The notes beneath the pieces are model-generated. The model saw only the letters and a list, made by a program, of their open reading frames with translations, did no database searches and was not told the DNA's origin. This document shows, one piece after another, positions 27,530 through 36,156 of a stretch of DNA of 47,647 nt (positions are counted from its first letter, which is position 1; the number at the start of each line of letters is the position of its first letter). Source of the DNA: Shigella phage Sf12; the sequence record MF158039. One strand, given 5' to 3'. The translations under genes were made by a program, and so were the position numbers.

Positions 27530-30271
27530 TTAACTGTAACCGCGCAAGAACTGGTAAGCAGTCCCGCCCTGCTGGAAGGACTGAGTAATCTCTTCCGCGA
27601 TGATAACCCTGATACCAGATTCTAACTGTTTAGCGTCATTACCGCCACCGCCGCCAAGACCTGTCTGAACGGTAACATTCACTCCACCAACGTTAACGTT
27701 GCTTCCACCAACAAGTCCACCAGTCGCATAACCAGGACCAGAACCAACCACTCCGCCGTTGGCGTATCCGCGCATCAACTTGTACAGGTTGTCTACACCA
27801 ATCCTTGACGTTGCCTCCTTCGTAAAGACAAATTCACCACGATGCACTGTACCAGCTGGCTCGTACTTACCACCGTTTCCAGTGTAACCACCTGAAGCGA
27901 AACCAAATGCGCTACCAATGGAGCCAATAGCACCACCGCTACCGCCAAAACTAGAGATGGTTGACTCAATCGCCTTAATCAAAAGTAGCTGCGTTGCAAT
28001 GCGTGCAATCTGCTTCAAAATCGACGCTGTAAACTCGCGGAAGTTAGCCTCTCCAGTTGTTACCAAGTTTGTAATCTGATCAGTCAAGCCATTAAAGGCA
28101 CTCGTTGCCAATTCAGCTCCAATCTGATTGAAATTTGCCAATTCATCAGCTGTCTCGGCGAATGCTGACCTAACGCCAGCCAGCCAGTTACCACGTAATG
28201 CATCTTCCTGATTGTAGAAATTCTGACGAGCCTGAAGTAGCGCCTGAAAGTCAGTATCGTCTACTGAGCCACCTCGATTAACTTGCTGCGCTGTTAATGC
28301 TGCAATTTCACGCTGCCTCTCCTGCTCCCTTCTTGAAAGTCCAGCTCCAAGTGAAAGCGCTTCAGTCTGGGCGTTAATCTGATTGGTCTTCCTGATGTTT
28401 TCATCAAGTAATTTGTTTGCAGCTTCCTGCTGCTGAATCTGGTCACCTAGAATCGCAGACTTCTCACGCTCTGCAAGAATGATATCTCTCTTGGCGAACA
28501 ATTCACGCTGCGCTGCATTTGCAGTGCCTGCGTTAATTCTTTCCTCGATAACTGCAAACCTCGCCTGTTCATCAATTAGCTGCTTGCGCTGCTGACTGAG
28601 AGTTCTTCCTACCAGTTCCTGATCTTTAAGTACCCTGAGTTGAGCCTCCAGTGCTATCACTCCAGCTTCCGCGTCCTGGGTTAAGTCTCTTTGTTGTCTT
28701 GGCTGCCTTTCTGTGGTCCTCCTCCCATTTCTTGGTTTGTTTGCTTCGGCTAGTTCCTCCTTCCTGATTTCAACAATCCTATTGGCTTGTCTAATTGCCT
28801 CGGCATTACCGCTCAGCCTAATCTTGTTTAGCTGGCTTTCCGCTTGCTGTAATGCTCTAGTCGCACCAGCAACTCTATCAGTAGCGAAGTACTCCTTGTC
28901 GATTGCTGCTACAGTCTCAGCTCTTTCCCTCGCACCTTCACGAAGTGCGTTGTTTAGATCCGTTGCTGTTATCGCTATATCATCAATTGATCGCTGAACC
29001 CTTGCGTTGTTACTGACCTGTGAGTTACCAAGCTGCTGTAAAACTCTAGTTAGAAAACCAACCTCTGTTGCTGCCTGCTTGTAGCTATCAGCAATCCCTG
29101 CGACTTGAGCTTTGTGTTCTGCAATCTTTGCGTTAACTGCGGTGAAGTTTGAAGCATCCTTATACTGATCAACAAGCTCCCTCGCCTCTTCATAGCTCAA
29201 ACCAACATCAATAAGAGCAAGTTCAGCTTCTAAAGCGCCATCTGTAGTTGATACGAATGCTTGTGCAATTGACTCAGCAGACTTGCCTGTCTCCTCCGCG
29301 AGATCAGCGACCAGCTGACCAAGCCTTGATGCGGAATCACCAGTCAGGCCAAGTGATTTCTGAACTGCTGCCGTTCCTTCTTCCAGCCTCTTTTGTGAGT
29401 TGAATATTGATACGCCTAGCGTAGTAAATGCAATTGCAAGAACACCAAGAGAAGCCGTTACAGGGTTAATGTAACTAAGTAAGAACCTAAATGTGTTAGC
29501 GACACCTCCGAAGCTATCCTTAATCTGACCACCCTGCTGTATTGCAATAAGCCAAAGTGGTATGCCGCCAGCGATTGATGTCCCGATGTCTGTAATCTGC
29601 GCCGGAAGTTGTGCAATGGCATTTTTATATTGACCAGCGCTTAACCCTGATTTCCTGAACGCCTCGGCTTGACGACCTAGCGCTTCTACGTTAGCGTTCG
29701 TCCTTTGAGAAATTGATTGAATCAATGGTGCCGCCTGATCTGAAACACCAAGCTGGGCCGCTCTAAGTTCAAGAAGTTCTGTAGTTGTCCTTCCAGCTGC
29801 TAGCTCTTGCTGCCTGAGCGACTCAATGAACCTTTGACCAGCAGAGGCAAGCTTTTCTTTCTCTCTTGAGGCAGCTAGTGAAGCCCTACCTTCCTCAGTC
29901 AATGCGGCAGCACTTCTACGCAGTCTATTTTCCTGAGTCTCAAGAACCTCCCCAAGCCTGAAGAACTGCTCATCAGGAACTACACCAGCGGCAAACGCCT
30001 TATCTAAACCCTCCGCAGCTACACGCAACTTCTGTAGTTTTGAAGCCGTTGGGTCAATCGTCTGACTAAGCCTCTGAAAGGCTATCTGCTGTTCCTGCGT
30101 TGCCCTTGCGGTATCTCTGGCTATTGTCCTGGCAACTTGCTCAGCGTTAACAAACTTATCAACACCAGATGCCGCCTGTTCATTGGCACGTTTAAATTCT
30201 TGCAGGGACTTTGTGCCCTGTTCAACTTGGCGAACGTCAACGCCAAGTGTGATACCTGCAAATTCTGCCAT
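27530..30271 (-). CDS. Tail tape measure protein (start refined to Met 30271)
   Basis: About 910 aa, Ala/Gln-rich coiled-coil, Gly-rich C-terminus; follows G/T chaperones. Confidence 0.8.
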   Translation of the reverse strand: MAEFAGITLGVDVRQVEQGTKSLQEFKRANEQAASGVDKFVNAEQVARTIARDTARATQEQQIAFQRLSQTIDPTASKLQKLRVAAEGLDKAFAAGVVPDEQFFRLGEVLETQENRLRRSAAALTEEGRASLAASREKEKLASAGQRFIESLRQQELAAGRTTTELLELRAAQLGVSDQAAPLIQSISQRTNANVEALGRQAEAFRKSGLSAGQYKNAIAQLPAQITDIGTSIAGGIPLWLIAIQQGGQIKDSFGGVANTFRFLLSYINPVTASLGVLAIAFTTLGVSIFNSQKRLEEGTAAVQKSLGLTGDSASRLGQLVADLAEETGKSAESIAQAFVSTTDGALEAELALIDVGLSYEEARELVDQYKDASNFTAVNAKIAEHKAQVAGIADSYKQAATEVGFLTRVLQQLGNSQVSNNARVQRSIDDIAITATDLNNALREGARERAETVAAIDKEYFATDRVAGATRALQQAESQLNKIRLSGNAEAIRQANRIVEIRKEELAEANKPRNGRRTTERQPRQQRDLTQDAEAGVIALEAQLRVLKDQELVGRTLSQQRKQLIDEQARFAVIEERINAGTANAAQRELFAKRDIILAEREKSAILGDQIQQQEAANKLLDENIRKTNQINAQTEALSLGAGLSRREQERQREIAALTAQQVNRGGSVDDTDFQALLQARQNFYNQEDALRGNWLAGVRSAFAETADELANFNQIGAELATSAFNGLTDQITNLVTTGEANFREFTASILKQIARIATQLLLIKAIESTISSFGGSGGAIGSIGSAFGFASGGYTGNGGKYEPAGTVHRGEFVFTKEATSRIGVDNLYKLMRGYANGGVVGSGPGYATGGLVGGSNVNVGGVNVTVQTGLGGGGGNDAKQLESGIRVIIAEEITQSFQQGGTAYQFLRGYS

Positions 30272-30305
30272 GTAACCTCCATAAAAAAACCTCCACAAAG
30301 GGAGG

Positions 30306-30560
30306 TTATTTTTGCCTTACTTGCATCATCTCAAGTGCTTTGCACTCCAGTATTCGCAAGTCATTTAAAGTCATCTCTTTGTCCTTGACATTATACACAT
30401 CAAAGAGGAAAGGGAGTACTGAATAATCTATTCCGGTAGCGCCGTTCATACCTACACGCCATTGAGTTGAAGCAGCCTGATACACAGTCCATGCCAGCAT
30501 CATGTCATCATCGAAGTGTAGTTCTTCAGGCTCTTCATCTTCGTAATCGGAACGCCTCAT
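30306..30560 (-). CDS. Tail assembly chaperone T-like segment (probable -1 frameshift extension of G)
   Basis: Frame is open upstream into the end of G; frame offset consistent with -1 shift. Confidence 0.45.
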   Translation of the reverse strand: MRRSDYEDEEPEELHFDDDMMLAWTVYQAASTQWRVGMNGATGIDYSVLPFLFDVYNVKDKEMTLNDLRILECKALEMMQVRQK

Positions 30561-30622
30561 GCCAATTGCTTCAAGCTCGGATTCCGTTGGCTCTCTTTGG
30601 TATTGTAGATATACTGCGCGCT

Positions 30623-30937
30623 TTAGACCTTTGCGCGTTGGCCCGCCAGAGCTTGCATGTAAGCATTAGTCAGTGCAAGAACGGATGCGGGGAACAGGGA
30701 GACCAGTTCTTCGATGTTCTCGTCGTTAAATTCCTCTTCAAGGTTCCAGCCACTGCAAATCTCTTTCACAAAATCAAAGTCCTTAAGGCCTTCTGTCTGG
30801 AATACTTCCTGAATTTCTTTTGCCTTACGGTGTTTTGCGTTGAAGATAACCTCAGCTTCCTCGCCGTTGATCATCTGGAACTTAACTGGAAGCTTGAAAT
30901 CAGGGAGTGCGCCTAATTTTAATTTGAACTTAGCCAT
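30623..30937 (-). CDS. Tail assembly chaperone (lambda gpG-like)
   Basis: 104-aa acidic protein between major tail protein and tape measure. Confidence 0.55.
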   Translation of the reverse strand: MAKFKLKLGALPDFKLPVKFQMINGEEAEVIFNAKHRKAKEIQEVFQTEGLKDFDFVKEICSGWNLEEEFNDENIEELVSLFPASVLALTNAYMQALAGQRAKV

Positions 30938-30980
30938 TTAAATAATCCTCTCGTGTTTGTTTGAGTTGAAATTATAACAT

Positions 30981-31005
30981 AAAAAAAGCCCCTGTGAAGG
31001 GGCTT
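30981..31005 (-). terminator. Rho-independent terminator after the major tail protein gene
   Basis: aagccccttcacaggggctt then ttttttt on minus strand. Confidence 0.6.
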
Positions 31006-31010
31006 GATTA

Positions 31011-31661
31011 TTATGCTGGCAGGAAGCTGTAGCGTCCACGTACCGTAATTGCTACGGATACAGTTTCGATTTCGTTAACGCTTACGTTTGGAGTTTCGTT
31101 AAAAGCAACGGTACCAGTCCACAGGCGAACTTCGCTAGCCTTTGGTACATATGCACGAATCGCAGTAACCTTGCCACTCTCATCCAGTTCGCGAAGGATT
31201 GGGTAAATGGGGTTGTTGTATTCATGAGCAAAAGTATAGGTCGCGTTTACTGCAGACTTGTAAGTAGGAATCTGCTGTTCACGGTCATCGCTCAGGCACT
31301 GATAGGTAACGAACTGCTGCTCACCACCGTCAGTAGAAACATCCTGAATACAAGGCATTTCAAACCAGGTAAGAACCTTGGCGATAGTTGCCGTGCCGCC
31401 AGCTGGGAACTTCAGGGTTGAAGTGGTATCAATACCTTCAACGGTGATAGTTGTAGCGGTGGTAGACACCACGCGAAGCTGCTTGTCTGCCAGGTTAGAC
31501 CAGGTTGAAGATTCAACAACAACGAAATCGCCGGTAGCGAAGGTTGAAGCGTCAGCAACAGTCATGACCGGCTGAACTGCGTTGGTAATTGCTGTAACAT
31601 CTACTGCGTCAGAGCGTGAGCCCTCAATAAAAATTTGACTGCCATTTGCGAGGTGAGCCAT
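31011..31661 (-). CDS. Major tail protein
   Basis: Position upstream of G/T and tape measure; strong terminator downstream. Confidence 0.55.
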   Translation of the reverse strand: MAHLANGSQIFIEGSRSDAVDVTAITNAVQPVMTVADASTFATGDFVVVESSTWSNLADKQLRVVSTTATTITVEGIDTTSTLKFPAGGTATIAKVLTWFEMPCIQDVSTDGGEQQFVTYQCLSDDREQQIPTYKSAVNATYTFAHEYNNPIYPILRELDESGKVTAIRAYVPKASEVRLWTGTVAFNETPNVSVNEIETVSVAITVRGRYSFLPA

Positions 31662-34680: not shown

Positions 34681-36156
34681 CTATGCGAGAGGTTCGCTTA
34701 AGTTTTCCACCTTATAAGCGTAAACGCCAGCCAAGGCATCGGATGAGTTCCTTATGCCAACTATTGTAAGCTTGAAGCATTTAGAGTCAGCTGTAGCTCC
34801 TGGTGATGTGGTTACGTAGTGCTCAGATGTGACTCCAAAAACTCCTGGCTTGAACACGCTATTCCAAAGAGCAGTCCCAGGAGGCATGCTTGTTACTATC
34901 GCTGTGTAGTTTTTCAACTTATCAGCTGCAACTGTAGTGAGTGAGTCAATCTGGTATGCAGTGTGCCTTATTGAAGCGATGTTTGATGTACCGGTATTAC
35001 TAACACCAACCCACAGCCCCTTAGCGGCAACTGTCGCATTCTTCTCTCCGGTAAGAGCGAACCTTATTGTTGTCTCTCCAGGTATATCTATAAAGTCAGT
35101 ATCCGTCTGATTGATCAACCCTGACCTTACGCCTGAAGCTACGTTATAAGAGGCTGGACCAGCCACCCCCTGTAAGCCCTGAGGTCCCGTAGGGCCCTGC
35201 AATCCACGCTCACCCTGCGGGCCTGCCGGGCCTTGTGGTCCAACTGCACCAGCTACACCTTGTAAGCCTTGCGGGCCAGCTGGGCCTTGCTCACCTTGCA
35301 GGCCCCTCTCGCCTTGTGGGCCTTGAATACCTGCCGGACCTGTCGGGCCAGTTGGGCCTGCTGGACCAGCGGAACCCTGTGGGCCTGGAGCACCCTGTGC
35401 GGCCAGTAACTCCCAGGAATCGCTAACATCTGGATTTTCTCCGGTCACGGCGGCGGTAGCAAACCAGCTTGAGTTATTGAATGTAACAACGTCATCTTTA
35501 ACGTAAGCTGTCGCTGCGTCGTACATCCCGCGGAATGTTAAGCCTGCCGGACCAACTGGGCCCGCATCACCTTTATCACCTTTAGGGCCAGCAGGACCTG
35601 CTGCGCCAGTTGCACCGATAGGGCCTTGCGGACCAGCCTCGCCAGTTTCACCTTGAGGACCTTGCGGGCCTACGGGGCCAGCTGGACCAGTTTCGCCTTT
35701 AGCACCTGCCGCGCCTGCCGGGCCGGTAGCACCTGTTGGGCCTTGAGGACCCTGTGGACCAATAGCTCCTGCCGGGCCCGCTGGACCCTGTGGACCAACC
35801 GGACCTTGTGGGCCTGCTTCACCTGAGCCTCCTTCTTCATCACTTACAAAATCACCTTTCGCCAGCGCTGAAAGATAAGCACCATCTTCGAAGTGGGCAT
35901 TGCCAAACCTGCGCCAGCCCTGGGCTAGATATCTGTTAACCCTGTTAACTAATCCCTGAATTGTGGTATCGGATGTCACCATGAAGTCTTCAACGTTGTT
36001 TGCTGTTCCCTTCGCCATCTTCATGCCAAAGAGGGTGCCGCTCAGCATCTGCACGTCGCCATATGGCTGGAATCCTGATGAAATCATCATTTTTACGTTT
36101 CTGGCTAAGATTTCAGGTGAATTCCCTACTGCCATAGCAATTTCTGTGTAAGCCAT
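34681..36156 (-). CDS. Collagen-like triple-helix repeat protein (fiber-like structural protein)
   Basis: Two long Gly-X-Y tracts, e.g. [34 protein letters not shown]. Confidence 0.8.

What the first reader, a model, noticed from the sequence alone, without database searches (positions are those of the whole stretch)
30306..30937. G/T-type tail chaperone pair without a canonical slippery heptamer
The T-like ORF is open upstream into the last codons of G in the frame expected for a -1 shift, but the overlap (..CTGGCGGGCCAACGCGCAAAGGTCTAA) lacks an X-XXY-YYZ motif. The shift site may be non-canonical, or T may be translated independently from ATG 30560.
Basis: seen in the sequence. Interest (0 to 1): 0.35.

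Follow-up and report, generated by a model that had tools for sequence, protein, structure and literature searches.

The report
Tail chaperone frameshift at A-AAG
This T1-like E. coli phage most likely makes its long tail-assembly chaperone by the usual backward ribosome slip, but at a short, already known slippery motif (GCA-AAG) instead of the textbook seven-base one, so the finding is real but ordinary.

Summary
On the minus strand, G (30937..30623, Pfam Phage_TAC_4) is followed by a T-like ORF (DUF1799). That ORF is open in the -1 frame from 30665 to 30306, and no in-frame X_XXY_YYZ heptamer lies in the 43-nt overlap.

The window is a Rogunavirus (Drexlerviridae, about 95% identical to Rogue1, JK06 and C119). 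Independent translation from ATG 30560 is not supported:
- The ATG has no Shine-Dalgarno sequence.
- This Met is a Leu (TTA/CTT/CTC) in T1, TLS-type and Webervirus relatives.
- The 62 nt between the G stop and the ATG evolve as -1-frame coding sequence. In 8 genomes with this exact site, 9 of 10 variable positions are third codon positions (P = 3.6e-4).
- That stretch encodes the best-conserved part of T (LKRAVYL...), yet no ATG/GTG/TTG lies upstream of it.

Relatives slip at the same place. Most carry A_AAA_AAC plus a hairpin. This clade carries GCA_AAG GTC TAA, which contains an in-frame A_AAG tetramer (30632..30629). In published E. coli reporter assays A_AAG is the most slip-prone tetramer and outperforms A_AAA_AAC when a pseudoknot is present.

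I found no downstream hairpin or pseudoknot here. The Rogue1 paper (2012) had already noted the missing lambda-type site. Verdict: a known kind of system with a minor variant; low interest.

The parts
30986..31005 (-). Terminator-like hairpin after the major tail protein gene. It marks the upstream boundary of the G-T unit.
   Evidence: 8-bp stem plus T-run. The homologous site is annotated as a terminator in AKS96 and T1.
30971..30998 (-). Sigma-70-like promoter (TTCACA-16-TATAAT, 11/12 matches, TG extension) just upstream of G
   Evidence: A promoter is annotated at the same place in AKS96. This is a consensus match only.
30946..30952 (-). Shine-Dalgarno-like GAGAGGA for G
   Evidence: Sequence read. 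Anti-SD pairing energy is -5.8 kcal/mol.
30623..30937 (-). G: tail assembly chaperone, 104 aa, zero-frame product (Pfam Phage_TAC_4)
   Evidence: E = 6e-37. Variable sites among 8 genomes fall 5/1/46 on codon positions 1/2/3.
30629..30634 (-). Proposed -1 slip site GCA_AAG. The A_AAG tetramer is 30632..30629. tRNA-Lys would re-pair from AAG to AAA.
   Evidence: only shift-prone in-frame motif in the overlap. (positional homology with A_AAA_AAC, A_AAG_GGT and G_GGA_AAC in relatives). PMC4066793 Table S2.
30306..30629 (-). T part of the GT fusion, read in the -1 frame (GLKRAVYL...RQK plus stop). The predicted fusion is join(30937..30629, 30629..30306), 210 aa.
   Evidence: Pfam DUF1799; PHROG 17368 matched end to end.
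30561..30622 (-). 62-nt 'spacer' between the G stop and ATG 30560. It is coding in the -1 frame and is the best-conserved part of T.
   Evidence: Variable sites fall 1/0/9 on -1-frame codon positions in 8 genomes (P = 3.6e-4). Nine of 23 residues are invariant across 10 phages from different Drexlerviridae groups.
30558..30560 (-). ATG (an internal Met of T). It is not supported as an initiation codon.
   Evidence: no SD. (Leu TTA/CTT/CTC in T1, TLS-type and Webervirus relatives).
30288..30307 (-). Terminator-like hairpin between T and the tape measure gene
   Evidence: Annotated as a terminator in AKS96 and T1.
30270..30272 (-). Likely true start (ATG) of the tape measure protein gene, with a GGAGGT Shine-Dalgarno sequence
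   Evidence: anti-SD -9.9 kcal/mol. Relatives annotate the tape measure start at this position.

Best explanation
G and T form a lambda-type G/GT tail-assembly-chaperone pair expressed by programmed -1 ribosomal frameshifting. Most ribosomes terminate at TAA 30625..30623 and make G (104 aa). A minority slip back one base at GCA_AAG (30634..30629), two codons before the stop. In that event the single E. coli tRNA-Lys (anticodon UUU), having decoded AAG, re-pairs with the overlapping AAA. The next codon read is then GGT. Translation continues through ...QRAK-G-LKRAVYL... to 30306 and gives a 210-aa GT fusion.

By analogy with lambda, the G part binds the tape measure protein and the T part recruits the major tail protein. 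This functional step is inferred, not shown here.

The site is a degenerate descendant of the family's A_AAA_AAC heptamer (three adjacent substitutions, AAAAAC to AAGGTC). It belongs to the known NNA_AAG tetramer/hexamer class used by IS3, IS1222 and B. subtilis cdd.

Shown here: the frame relations, the absence of a heptamer, the coding constraint on the -1 frame from the G stop onward, the absence of initiation signals, and the positional homology of the slip site.

Inferred: that slippage occurs at A_AAG rather than a neighbouring register, its efficiency, and the function of GT.
For: 1. T is the -1 frame of G with a 43-nt overlap. No ATG/GTG/TTG lies upstream of 30560 in that frame.

2. 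In 8 genomes that all carry GCA AAG GTC TAA, the 62 nt after the G stop vary at -1-frame codon positions 1/2/3 = 1/0/9 (P = 3.6e-4). The last 45 nt of G vary only at G-frame third positions (3 sites). Constraint therefore switches frame at the G stop.

3. Across 10 phages from different Drexlerviridae groups, the 23 residues encoded by that stretch are 48-83% identical to the window, against 45-68% for the rest of T. Nine of 23 are invariant, against 19 of 84.

4. The Met of ATG 30560 is Leu (TTA/CTT/CTC) in T1, TLS-type and Webervirus phages. Their first in-frame ATG lies 119-146 nt after the G stop.

5. ATG 30560 has no SD (-2.2 kcal/mol, against -5.8, -9.2 and -9.9 for G, the major tail protein and the tape measure protein) and no promoter between G and T.

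6. Every relative has a -1-competent motif in the last 2-3 codons of G:
- A_AAA_AAC: T1, TLS-type and Sd1; 45 of 80 IMG/VR loci.
- A_AAG_GGT: BEK12A.
- G_GGA_AAC: distant PF08748/PF08809 pairs in contigs that include several of about 100 kb, and in a Ralstonia phage.
- CAA_AAG: Fuzzy_ER39.

7. In E. coli reporters, the A_AAG tetramer gives 0.18% without and 5.64% with the IS3 pseudoknot. The A_AAA_AAC heptamer gives 0.16% and 0.74% (PMC4066793 Tables S2/S3). NNA_AAG sites are used by IS1222 and occur in cdd (PMC5009743).

8. A Webervirus relative, Skenny, whose site is GCA AAA GTT TAA, carries an annotated joined 'frameshift product' CDS.

9. The conceptual fusion matches PHROG 17368 over its whole length.
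Against: No fusion protein has been observed, and none of the Rogunavirus GenBank records I inspected annotates a joined CDS.

The P-site tRNA-Ala (GCA) cannot re-pair on CGC, so only the A-site tRNA is accommodated after the shift.

I found no stimulatory element. The 60 and 100 nt after the stop fold no better than shuffled sequence (z = +1.1 and +1.8). A brute-force H-type pseudoknot search gave z = -0.2. There is no convincing upstream SD-like sequence.

Without a stimulator, A_AAG gave only about 0.18% in reporters, close to background. GT could therefore be far scarcer here than the 1 GT per 30 G reported for lambda (PMC5009743).

The exact register of the slip (tetramer A_AAG, or P-site Lys in A_AAG_GUC) is not resolved.
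Confidence: 0.75

Rival explanations
1. T is made only as a free 84-aa protein, initiated at ATG 30560 either independently or by re-initiation after G terminates. No frameshift occurs.
For: The ATG exists and is conserved in Rogunavirinae and Braunvirinae-type relatives (MM01, RobRod40). GenBank records annotate an 84-85-aa CDS there. No canonical heptamer is present.
Against: There is no SD (-2.2 kcal/mol; 59% of all ATG triplets on the strand do as well or better) and no internal promoter. The 62 nt upstream of the ATG are under -1-frame coding constraint (1/0/9, P = 3.6e-4) and encode the most conserved T residues. The Met is a non-start Leu codon in most of the family. MM01 and RobRod40 have both the ATG and a canonical A_AAA_AAC, so the ATG is not a replacement for the slip site.
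Confidence: 0.06
2. A -1 shift does occur at the end of G, but in a different register. Either tRNA-Lys slips in the P site (AAG to AAA) with GUC in or awaiting the A site (the near-heptamer A_AAG_GUC), or the shift is at the upstream G_GGC tetramer (30644..30641).
For: A_AAG_GUC is one base away from the canonical A_AAG_GGU seen in BEK12A. G_GGC is the only other in-frame Z_ZZN tetramer in the overlap.
Against: tRNA-Val on GGU would have a central mismatch. G_GGC was at background in E. coli reporters (0.137% without and 0.047% with the pseudoknot). It is also not conserved in relatives (GCA GGG, GCC GGA, GCT GGT), whereas A_AAR at codon -2 is present in every Drexlerviridae locus examined.
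Confidence: 0.15
3. The slip site has been lost and T is a decaying remnant in this clade, or the apparent frame change is a sequencing error.
For: Both the heptamer and the downstream hairpin seen in T1-type relatives are missing.
Against: The identical GCA AAG GTC TAA is present in 8 distinct, independently isolated genomes. T stays intact at 106 codons after the stop. Its variable sites are biased to third positions (6/2/14 in the core, 1/0/9 in the spacer).
Confidence: 0.02
4. Transcriptional slippage by RNA polymerase, rather than ribosomal slippage, puts T in frame.
For: Most relatives have a run of six A at the site (GTA AAA AAC).
Against: The window has only AAA at the site. Known transcriptional slippage needs much longer homopolymer runs (established knowledge; see the review PMC5009743).
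Confidence: 0.01

Closest known systems
Phage lambda G/GT tail assembly chaperones (Levin, Hendrix and Casjens 1993; Xu, Hendrix and Duda 2004, 2013)
   Same: Two small ORFs sit between the major tail protein and tape measure genes. The second ORF is in the -1 frame and overlaps the 3' end of the first. The slip occurs a few codons before the G stop. The A-site half of the slip site (A_AAG) is identical to that of lambda's G_GGA_AAG.
   Different: The P-site half (G_GG) is missing, so the site here is C_GCA_AAG. There is no detectable sequence homology to lambda gpG or gpT; the Pfam families here are PF08748 and PF08809. The fusion has not been demonstrated.
T1-family G/GT pairs: T1 gp40/gp39, TLS-type phages, and Webervirus Skenny with its annotated frameshift product
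   Same: The proteins are homologous, at 45-83% identity in T. The gene order is the same. The slip position is the same (the last 2-3 codons of G). The -1-frame motif LKRAVYL starts at the stop codon in all of them.
   Different: T1 and TLS-type phages have the canonical A_AAA_AAC plus a 7-8-bp GGCGGUU(U)/(A)AACCGCC hairpin starting 7 nt downstream (z = -3.9 and -3.4). The window has A_AAG only and no structure (z = +1.1). Weberviruses have GCA_AAA_GTY, that is A_AAA only.
Rogue1 gp30/gp31 (Kropinski et al. 2012, PMC3496638)
   Same: Same genus, with about 95% identical DNA in this region. The paper already states that gene 30 lacks the lambda site GGGAAAG yet may form a G-T-type fusion with gp31.
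   Different: The paper names no slip site and invokes a 'downstream pseudoknot'. I could not reproduce that pseudoknot in the window or in C119.
NNA_AAG tetramer/hexamer -1 frameshift sites: IS3 (CCA_AAG), IS1222 (CGA_AAG) and B. subtilis cdd (CGA_AAG)
   Same: An in-frame A_AAG decoded by the shift-prone tRNA-Lys(UUU), preceded by an NNA codon whose tRNA cannot re-pair in the -1 frame (PMC5009743 and PMC4066793).
   Different: IS3 relies on a strong downstream pseudoknot, and the reporter study found A_AAG barely above background without one. No such stimulator was found here.

Membership tests
Lambda-type G/GT programmed -1 frameshift in tail assembly chaperones | The gene pair lies between the major tail protein gene and the tape measure gene | tested here: met
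   ORF map. Annotations of C119, UDF157lw, Opt-79, T1 and Skenny.
Lambda-type G/GT programmed -1 frameshift in tail assembly chaperones | The second ORF is in the -1 frame, overlaps the 3' end of the first, and lacks its own initiation signals | tested here: met
   43-nt overlap in the -1 frame. No start codon upstream of 30560. No SD and no promoter.
Lambda-type G/GT programmed -1 frameshift in tail assembly chaperones | A canonical X_XXY_YYZ slippery heptamer lies in the overlap | tested here: not met
   All 14 in-frame heptamers were enumerated and none is canonical. Relatives do meet this feature (A_AAA_AAC, A_AAG_GGT, G_GGA_AAC).
Lambda-type G/GT programmed -1 frameshift in tail assembly chaperones | The downstream frame is under protein-coding selection from the shift site onward, and the arrangement is conserved in relatives | tested here: met
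   Spacer variable sites fall 1/0/9 (P = 3.6e-4). The spacer peptide is more conserved than the T core. 78 of 80 IMG/VR loci keep a T ORF of 104-113 codons after the stop; the other two are a 21-codon chance match and a match at a contig edge.
Lambda-type G/GT programmed -1 frameshift in tail assembly chaperones | A GT fusion protein is produced at a low fixed ratio to G | not testable with these tools
   Needs a reporter assay, western blot or mass spectrometry on infected cells.
Lambda-type G/GT programmed -1 frameshift in tail assembly chaperones | Sequence homology to lambda gpG or gpT | tested here: not met
   A Pfam scan at E <= 1 returned only PF08748 and PF08809 as significant matches. 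No relative has a solved structure. The pair is therefore an analogue by position and arrangement, not a demonstrable sequence homologue of the lambda proteins.
Pfam Phage_TAC_4 (PF08748) plus DUF1799 (PF08809) chaperone pair of T1-like phages | Matches above the curated gathering scores for both domains | tested here: met
   127 bits against a cutoff of 21.1, and 49.3 bits against a cutoff of 26. PHROGs 569, 680 and 17368 also match.
Z_ZZN / NNA_AAG tetramer-hexamer -1 frameshift sites (IS3, IS1222, cdd) | An in-frame A_AAG with AAG as a zero-frame codon, inside the overlap | tested here: met
   C_GCA_AAG at 30635..30629.
Z_ZZN / NNA_AAG tetramer-hexamer -1 frameshift sites (IS3, IS1222, cdd) | A stimulatory element is present (downstream hairpin or pseudoknot, or an upstream SD-like sequence) | tested here: not met
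   MFE z = +1.1 (60 nt) and +1.8 (100 nt). Pseudoknot search z = -0.2. Only a weak GGCGGG lies upstream. The methods are crude for pseudoknots, so a weak or unusual stimulator is not excluded.
Z_ZZN / NNA_AAG tetramer-hexamer -1 frameshift sites (IS3, IS1222, cdd) | The host decodes AAA and AAG with a single tRNA-Lys(UUU) | not tested
   This is established for E. coli (PMC5009743). The hosts of close relatives are E. coli and Shigella. I did not scan the window for a phage tRNA-Lys.

The most novel reading that the evidence does not exclude
Rogunaviruses have lost both the heptamer and the downstream RNA stimulator that their T1-type relatives carry. They now depend on a bare GCA_AAG site. 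Either they assemble tails with far less GT than lambda's 1 GT per 30 G, or an unrecognised stimulator boosts slippage. Candidate stimulators are the nascent ...ALAGQRAK peptide, the nearby stop codon, a GUC versus GGU tRNA-supply effect, or the GC-rich inverted repeat that brackets the site. In either case the clade would be a natural experiment on how much GT a siphovirus tail needs.
Probability: 0.15. Interest if true: 0.45.

Novelty: new member of a known kind. Interest (0 to 1): 0.2.

Why it matters
The main value is for annotation. In this large phage family (more than 1000 records with a tblastn match), T is routinely mis-annotated. It is called as a short free-standing ORF, split into fragments, or omitted (for example T1 gp39 at 55 aa, VAC11 in two pieces, and no T call at all in aaroes, tonn and Henu4_2). 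The correct product is a joined G-T CDS.

It also gives a clean example for frameshift predictors. A tail-chaperone frameshift can rest on a Z_ZZN tetramer, and about 40% of the family sample lacks a canonical heptamer.

Mechanistically it adds little. A_AAG slippage by E. coli tRNA-Lys is well characterised. One modest question stays open: how enough GT is made without any detectable stimulator.

Tried and rejected
- **Word-indexed homologue search with the 210-aa fusion.** It returned a single 123-aa DUF1799 protein and was uninformative about naturally fused or annotated GT proteins.
- **Xu et al. 2004.** The paper is not held in the library (one search was a malformed query), so I could not check whether T1 is in their table.
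- **Downstream stimulator.** I tried an MFE fold of 141 nt (z = 0.17), 60- and 100-nt folds and a home-made H-type pseudoknot enumeration with dinucleotide shuffles. Nothing rose above chance in the window or in C119. The 'downstream pseudoknot' mentioned for Rogue1 (PMC3496638) is therefore not reproduced.
- **The CGCGC/GCGCG hairpin predicted.** It brackets the slip site itself (the site lies in the loop), so its 5' arm would be inside the ribosome at the moment of slippage. I reject it as a classical stimulator. It is largely a by-product of Arg-Ala codons occurring in both frames.
- **Upstream SD-like stimulator.** Only GGCGGG is present, with a central mismatch to the anti-SD, and it is not conserved in relatives. 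Rejected.
- **Other searches.** PDB sequence search and NCBIfam gave no informative hit.

Full report
**What the window is.** Region 30250..31010 is 94-95% identical to Rogunavirus genomes (Rogue1, JK06, C119, e4/1c, AKS96 and others; Drexlerviridae, T1-like siphoviruses of E. coli). The window itself is IMG/VR contig 2974508497_000001, 47,647 bp.

The relevant genes are on the minus strand, in this order:
- Major tail protein: 31661..31011.
- G: 30937..30623, Pfam Phage_TAC_4, E = 6e-37.
- T-like ORF: Pfam DUF1799, E = 6e-13.
- Tape measure protein: likely start at ATG 30272.

The G-T unit is flanked by terminator-like hairpins at 31005..30986 and 30307..30288. A promoter-like site lies just upstream of G. 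Nothing promoter-like on the minus strand lies between G and T. Homologous features are annotated in AKS96 and T1.

**Checking the observation.** The T frame is the -1 frame of G. It is open from 30665 to 30306 and overlaps G by 43 nt.

In-frame A_AAG is rare in the window's large ORFs (11 of 2560 codons). About 0.06 would be expected by chance in the 14-codon overlap.

Eight distinct genomes all carry GCA AAG GTC TAA: the window, C119, UDF157lw, Opt-79, e4/1c, AHS24, phiKP26 and phiEB49. Among them, variable sites fall as follows:

| Region | Frame used | Codon positions 1 / 2 / 3 |
|---|---|---|
| G body | G frame | 5 / 1 / 46 |
| Last 45 nt of G | G frame | 0 / 0 / 3 |
| 62-nt 'spacer' after the G stop | -1 frame | 1 / 0 / 9 (binomial P = 3.6e-4) |

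Constraint therefore switches from the G frame to the -1 frame right at the G stop.

At family level, the 23 residues encoded by this stretch (GLKRAVYLQYQREPTESELEAIG) are more conserved than the 84 residues after the Met. Identity to the window is 48-83% against 45-68%, and 9 of 23 residues are invariant against 19 of 84.

No ATG, GTG or TTG precedes 30560 in this frame. ATG 30560 has no Shine-Dalgarno sequence: its anti-SD energy is -2.2 kcal/mol, and the median for all 1016 ATG triplets on the strand is -2.6. G, the major tail protein and the tape measure protein score -5.8, -9.2 and -9.9. In T1, TLS-type, Hanrivervirus, Warwickvirus and Webervirus relatives this Met is a Leu encoded by TTA, CTT or CTC. 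Their first in-frame ATG lies 119-146 nt after the G stop.

Independent initiation cannot explain these data. A shift from G can.

**Where the shift happens.** Every homologue examined carries a -1-competent motif in the last two or three codons of G.
- T1, TLS-type, SRT8, MM01 and RobRod40 have GTA/GCA AAA AAC TAA, which is A_AAA_AAC.
- Sd1, which is 90% identical to the window in this region, also has A_AAA_AAC.
- BEK12A has GTA AAG GGT TAA, which is A_AAG_GGT.
- Weberviruses have GCA AAA GTY TAA, which contains A_AAA only.
- Distant PF08748/PF08809 pairs, several of them in contigs of about 100 kb, and a Ralstonia phage end with G_GGA_AAC followed by the stop.
- Klebsiella phage Fuzzy_ER39 has CAA AAG CAC TAA, a second and apparently independent A_AAG.

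An IMG/VR pattern scan returned 99 matching stretches, of which 80 were listed as loci and analysed. Of the 80, 78 fall into the three types below; the other two are one chance match and one match at a contig edge.

| Site type | Loci |
|---|---|
| A_AAA_AAC | 45 |
| Webervirus type (GCA AAA GTT/GTC/GCC) | 28 |
| GCA AAG GTC | 5 |

The pattern required AAAR at this position, so the census is conditional on it.

The window's GCA_AAG sits in exactly this position. It differs from Sd1's site by three adjacent substitutions (AAAAAC to AAGGTC), so it is a recent derivative of the family's heptamer.

**Is A_AAG a plausible slip site?** Sharma et al. 2014 (PMC4066793) measured all tetramers and heptamers in E. 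coli.

| Motif | No stimulator | With IS3 pseudoknot |
|---|---|---|
| A_AAG tetramer | 0.178% | 5.64% |
| A_AAA_AAC heptamer | 0.163% | 0.739% |
| A_AAA tetramer | 0.125% | 0.256% |
| G_GGC tetramer | 0.137% | 0.047% |

A_AAG is by far the best tetramer. The 'canonical' A_AAA_AAC is a poor motif in E. coli. G_GGC is at background.

The Atkins et al. 2016 review (PMC5009743) lists NNA_AAG sites in cdd (A_CGA_AAG) and IS1222 (G_CGA_AAG). It notes that efficiency depends on the wobble behaviour of the tRNA reading the 5' NNA codon.

In E. coli, then, losing the heptamer did not mean losing slipperiness. The predicted product is join(30937..30629, 30629..30306), 210 aa, with the junction ...QRAK-G-LKRAVYL. 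It matches PHROG 17368 over its full length (E = 6e-85). A Webervirus relative, Skenny, already carries an annotated joined 'frameshift product'.

**Stimulators.** T1 and TLS-type phages have a GGCGGUU(U)/(A)AACCGCC hairpin starting 7 nt after the heptamer (z = -3.9 and -3.4). MM01 and RobRod40 have a long-range stem (z = -4.0).

The window and C119 fold no better than shuffled sequence. For the window z = +1.1 (60 nt) and +1.8 (100 nt); for C119 z = +2.45 and +0.64. A brute-force H-type pseudoknot search found nothing above chance (z = -0.2 and +0.31), while it did flag T1 (z = -2.5). The median MFE of the 60 nt after the stop is -4.9 kcal/mol for the Rogunavirus type, against -15 to -18 for the other types.

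The Rogue1 paper's remark that gene 30 'does possess a downstream pseudoknot' (PMC3496638) is therefore not reproduced. This is the one loose end. Unstimulated A_AAG is close to background in reporters, so either little GT is needed or a stimulator escaped my methods.

**Comparison with what is known, and novelty.** The arrangement works like lambda G/GT. It is homologous to the T1-family chaperone pair. It does not meet the 'canonical heptamer' criterion and shows no detectable sequence homology to lambda gpG or gpT.

The same puzzle was already stated for Rogue1 in 2012: the lambda site is lacking and a G-T fusion is nevertheless proposed. What I add is threefold: the likely slip site (a known motif class), the evidence that the spacer is translated, and the family-wide picture.

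I rate it a new member of a known kind, with low interest (0.2). The residual novel reading, stimulator-free or unusually stimulated frameshifting in this clade, gets a probability of about 0.15.

Noticed in passing
L008 (phage T1) 19194-19229; same place in L004, L005, L034, L035, L036: T1 and TLS-type relatives have a textbook -1 frameshift cassette: A_AAA_AAC, a 7-nt spacer, then the hairpin GGCGGUU(U)/(A)AACCGCC (z = -3.9 and -3.4). In T1 the loop sequence UCUGUU can pair with AACAGA just downstream, giving a possible H-type pseudoknot (z = -2.5; 2 of 200 shuffles score as well). None of the records I inspected for these phages annotates a frameshift.
   Followed up: partly
L032 (MM01) 719-788 and L033 (RobRod40): A long-range stem (-34.3 kcal/mol, z = -4.0) starts 6 nt after the A_AAA_AAC heptamer. 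It pairs with the sequence around the internal Met codon of T (GAUGCGCCGCUC). It could act both as a frameshift stimulator and as an occluder of that AUG. It is weak in Sd1 and C119 and essentially absent in the window.
   Followed up: partly
window 30637..30633 and 30621..30617 (minus strand): A GC-only inverted repeat, CGCGC/GCGCG, brackets the slip site and stop codon in an 11-nt loop. It is a perfect 8-bp stem (CAGCGCGC/GCGCGCUG) in UDF157lw. It arises from Arg-Ala codons in both frames. Its 5' arm would be inside the ribosome during slippage, so its significance is unknown.
   Followed up: partly
L041 (Klebsiella phage Fuzzy_ER39) around 739-753: A distant homologue ends G with CAA AAG CAC TAA. 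This is a second, apparently independent, A_AAG tetramer at codon -2. The record splits T into two small 'hypothetical' CDSs.
   Followed up: no
GenBank records seen (T1 gp39, VAC11, aaroes, tonn, Henu4_2, vbKpUKJ_2): T is mis-annotated across the family. In T1 it is truncated to 55 aa, in VAC11 it is split into two CDSs, and in several records it is not called at all. RefSeq names G and T 'tail length tape measure protein'.
   Followed up: partly
window 34681..36156 (minus strand): A 491-aa ORF with long collagen-like Gly-X-Y repeats ([16 protein letters not shown]...) lies just upstream of the major capsid protein gene.
   Followed up: no
window 30272..30298 (minus strand): The mechanical ORF call starts the tape measure gene at TTG 30298, inside the terminator hairpin after T. 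The real start is almost certainly ATG 30272, which has a GGAGGT Shine-Dalgarno sequence (-9.9 kcal/mol) and is where relatives annotate it.
   Followed up: partly
window 30971..31005 (minus strand): A strong promoter-like site (TTCACA-16-TATAAT with a TG extension, 11/12 matches) overlaps the terminator hairpin that follows the major tail protein gene. The G-T-tape measure block may therefore be both attenuated and re-initiated at this point.
   Followed up: no
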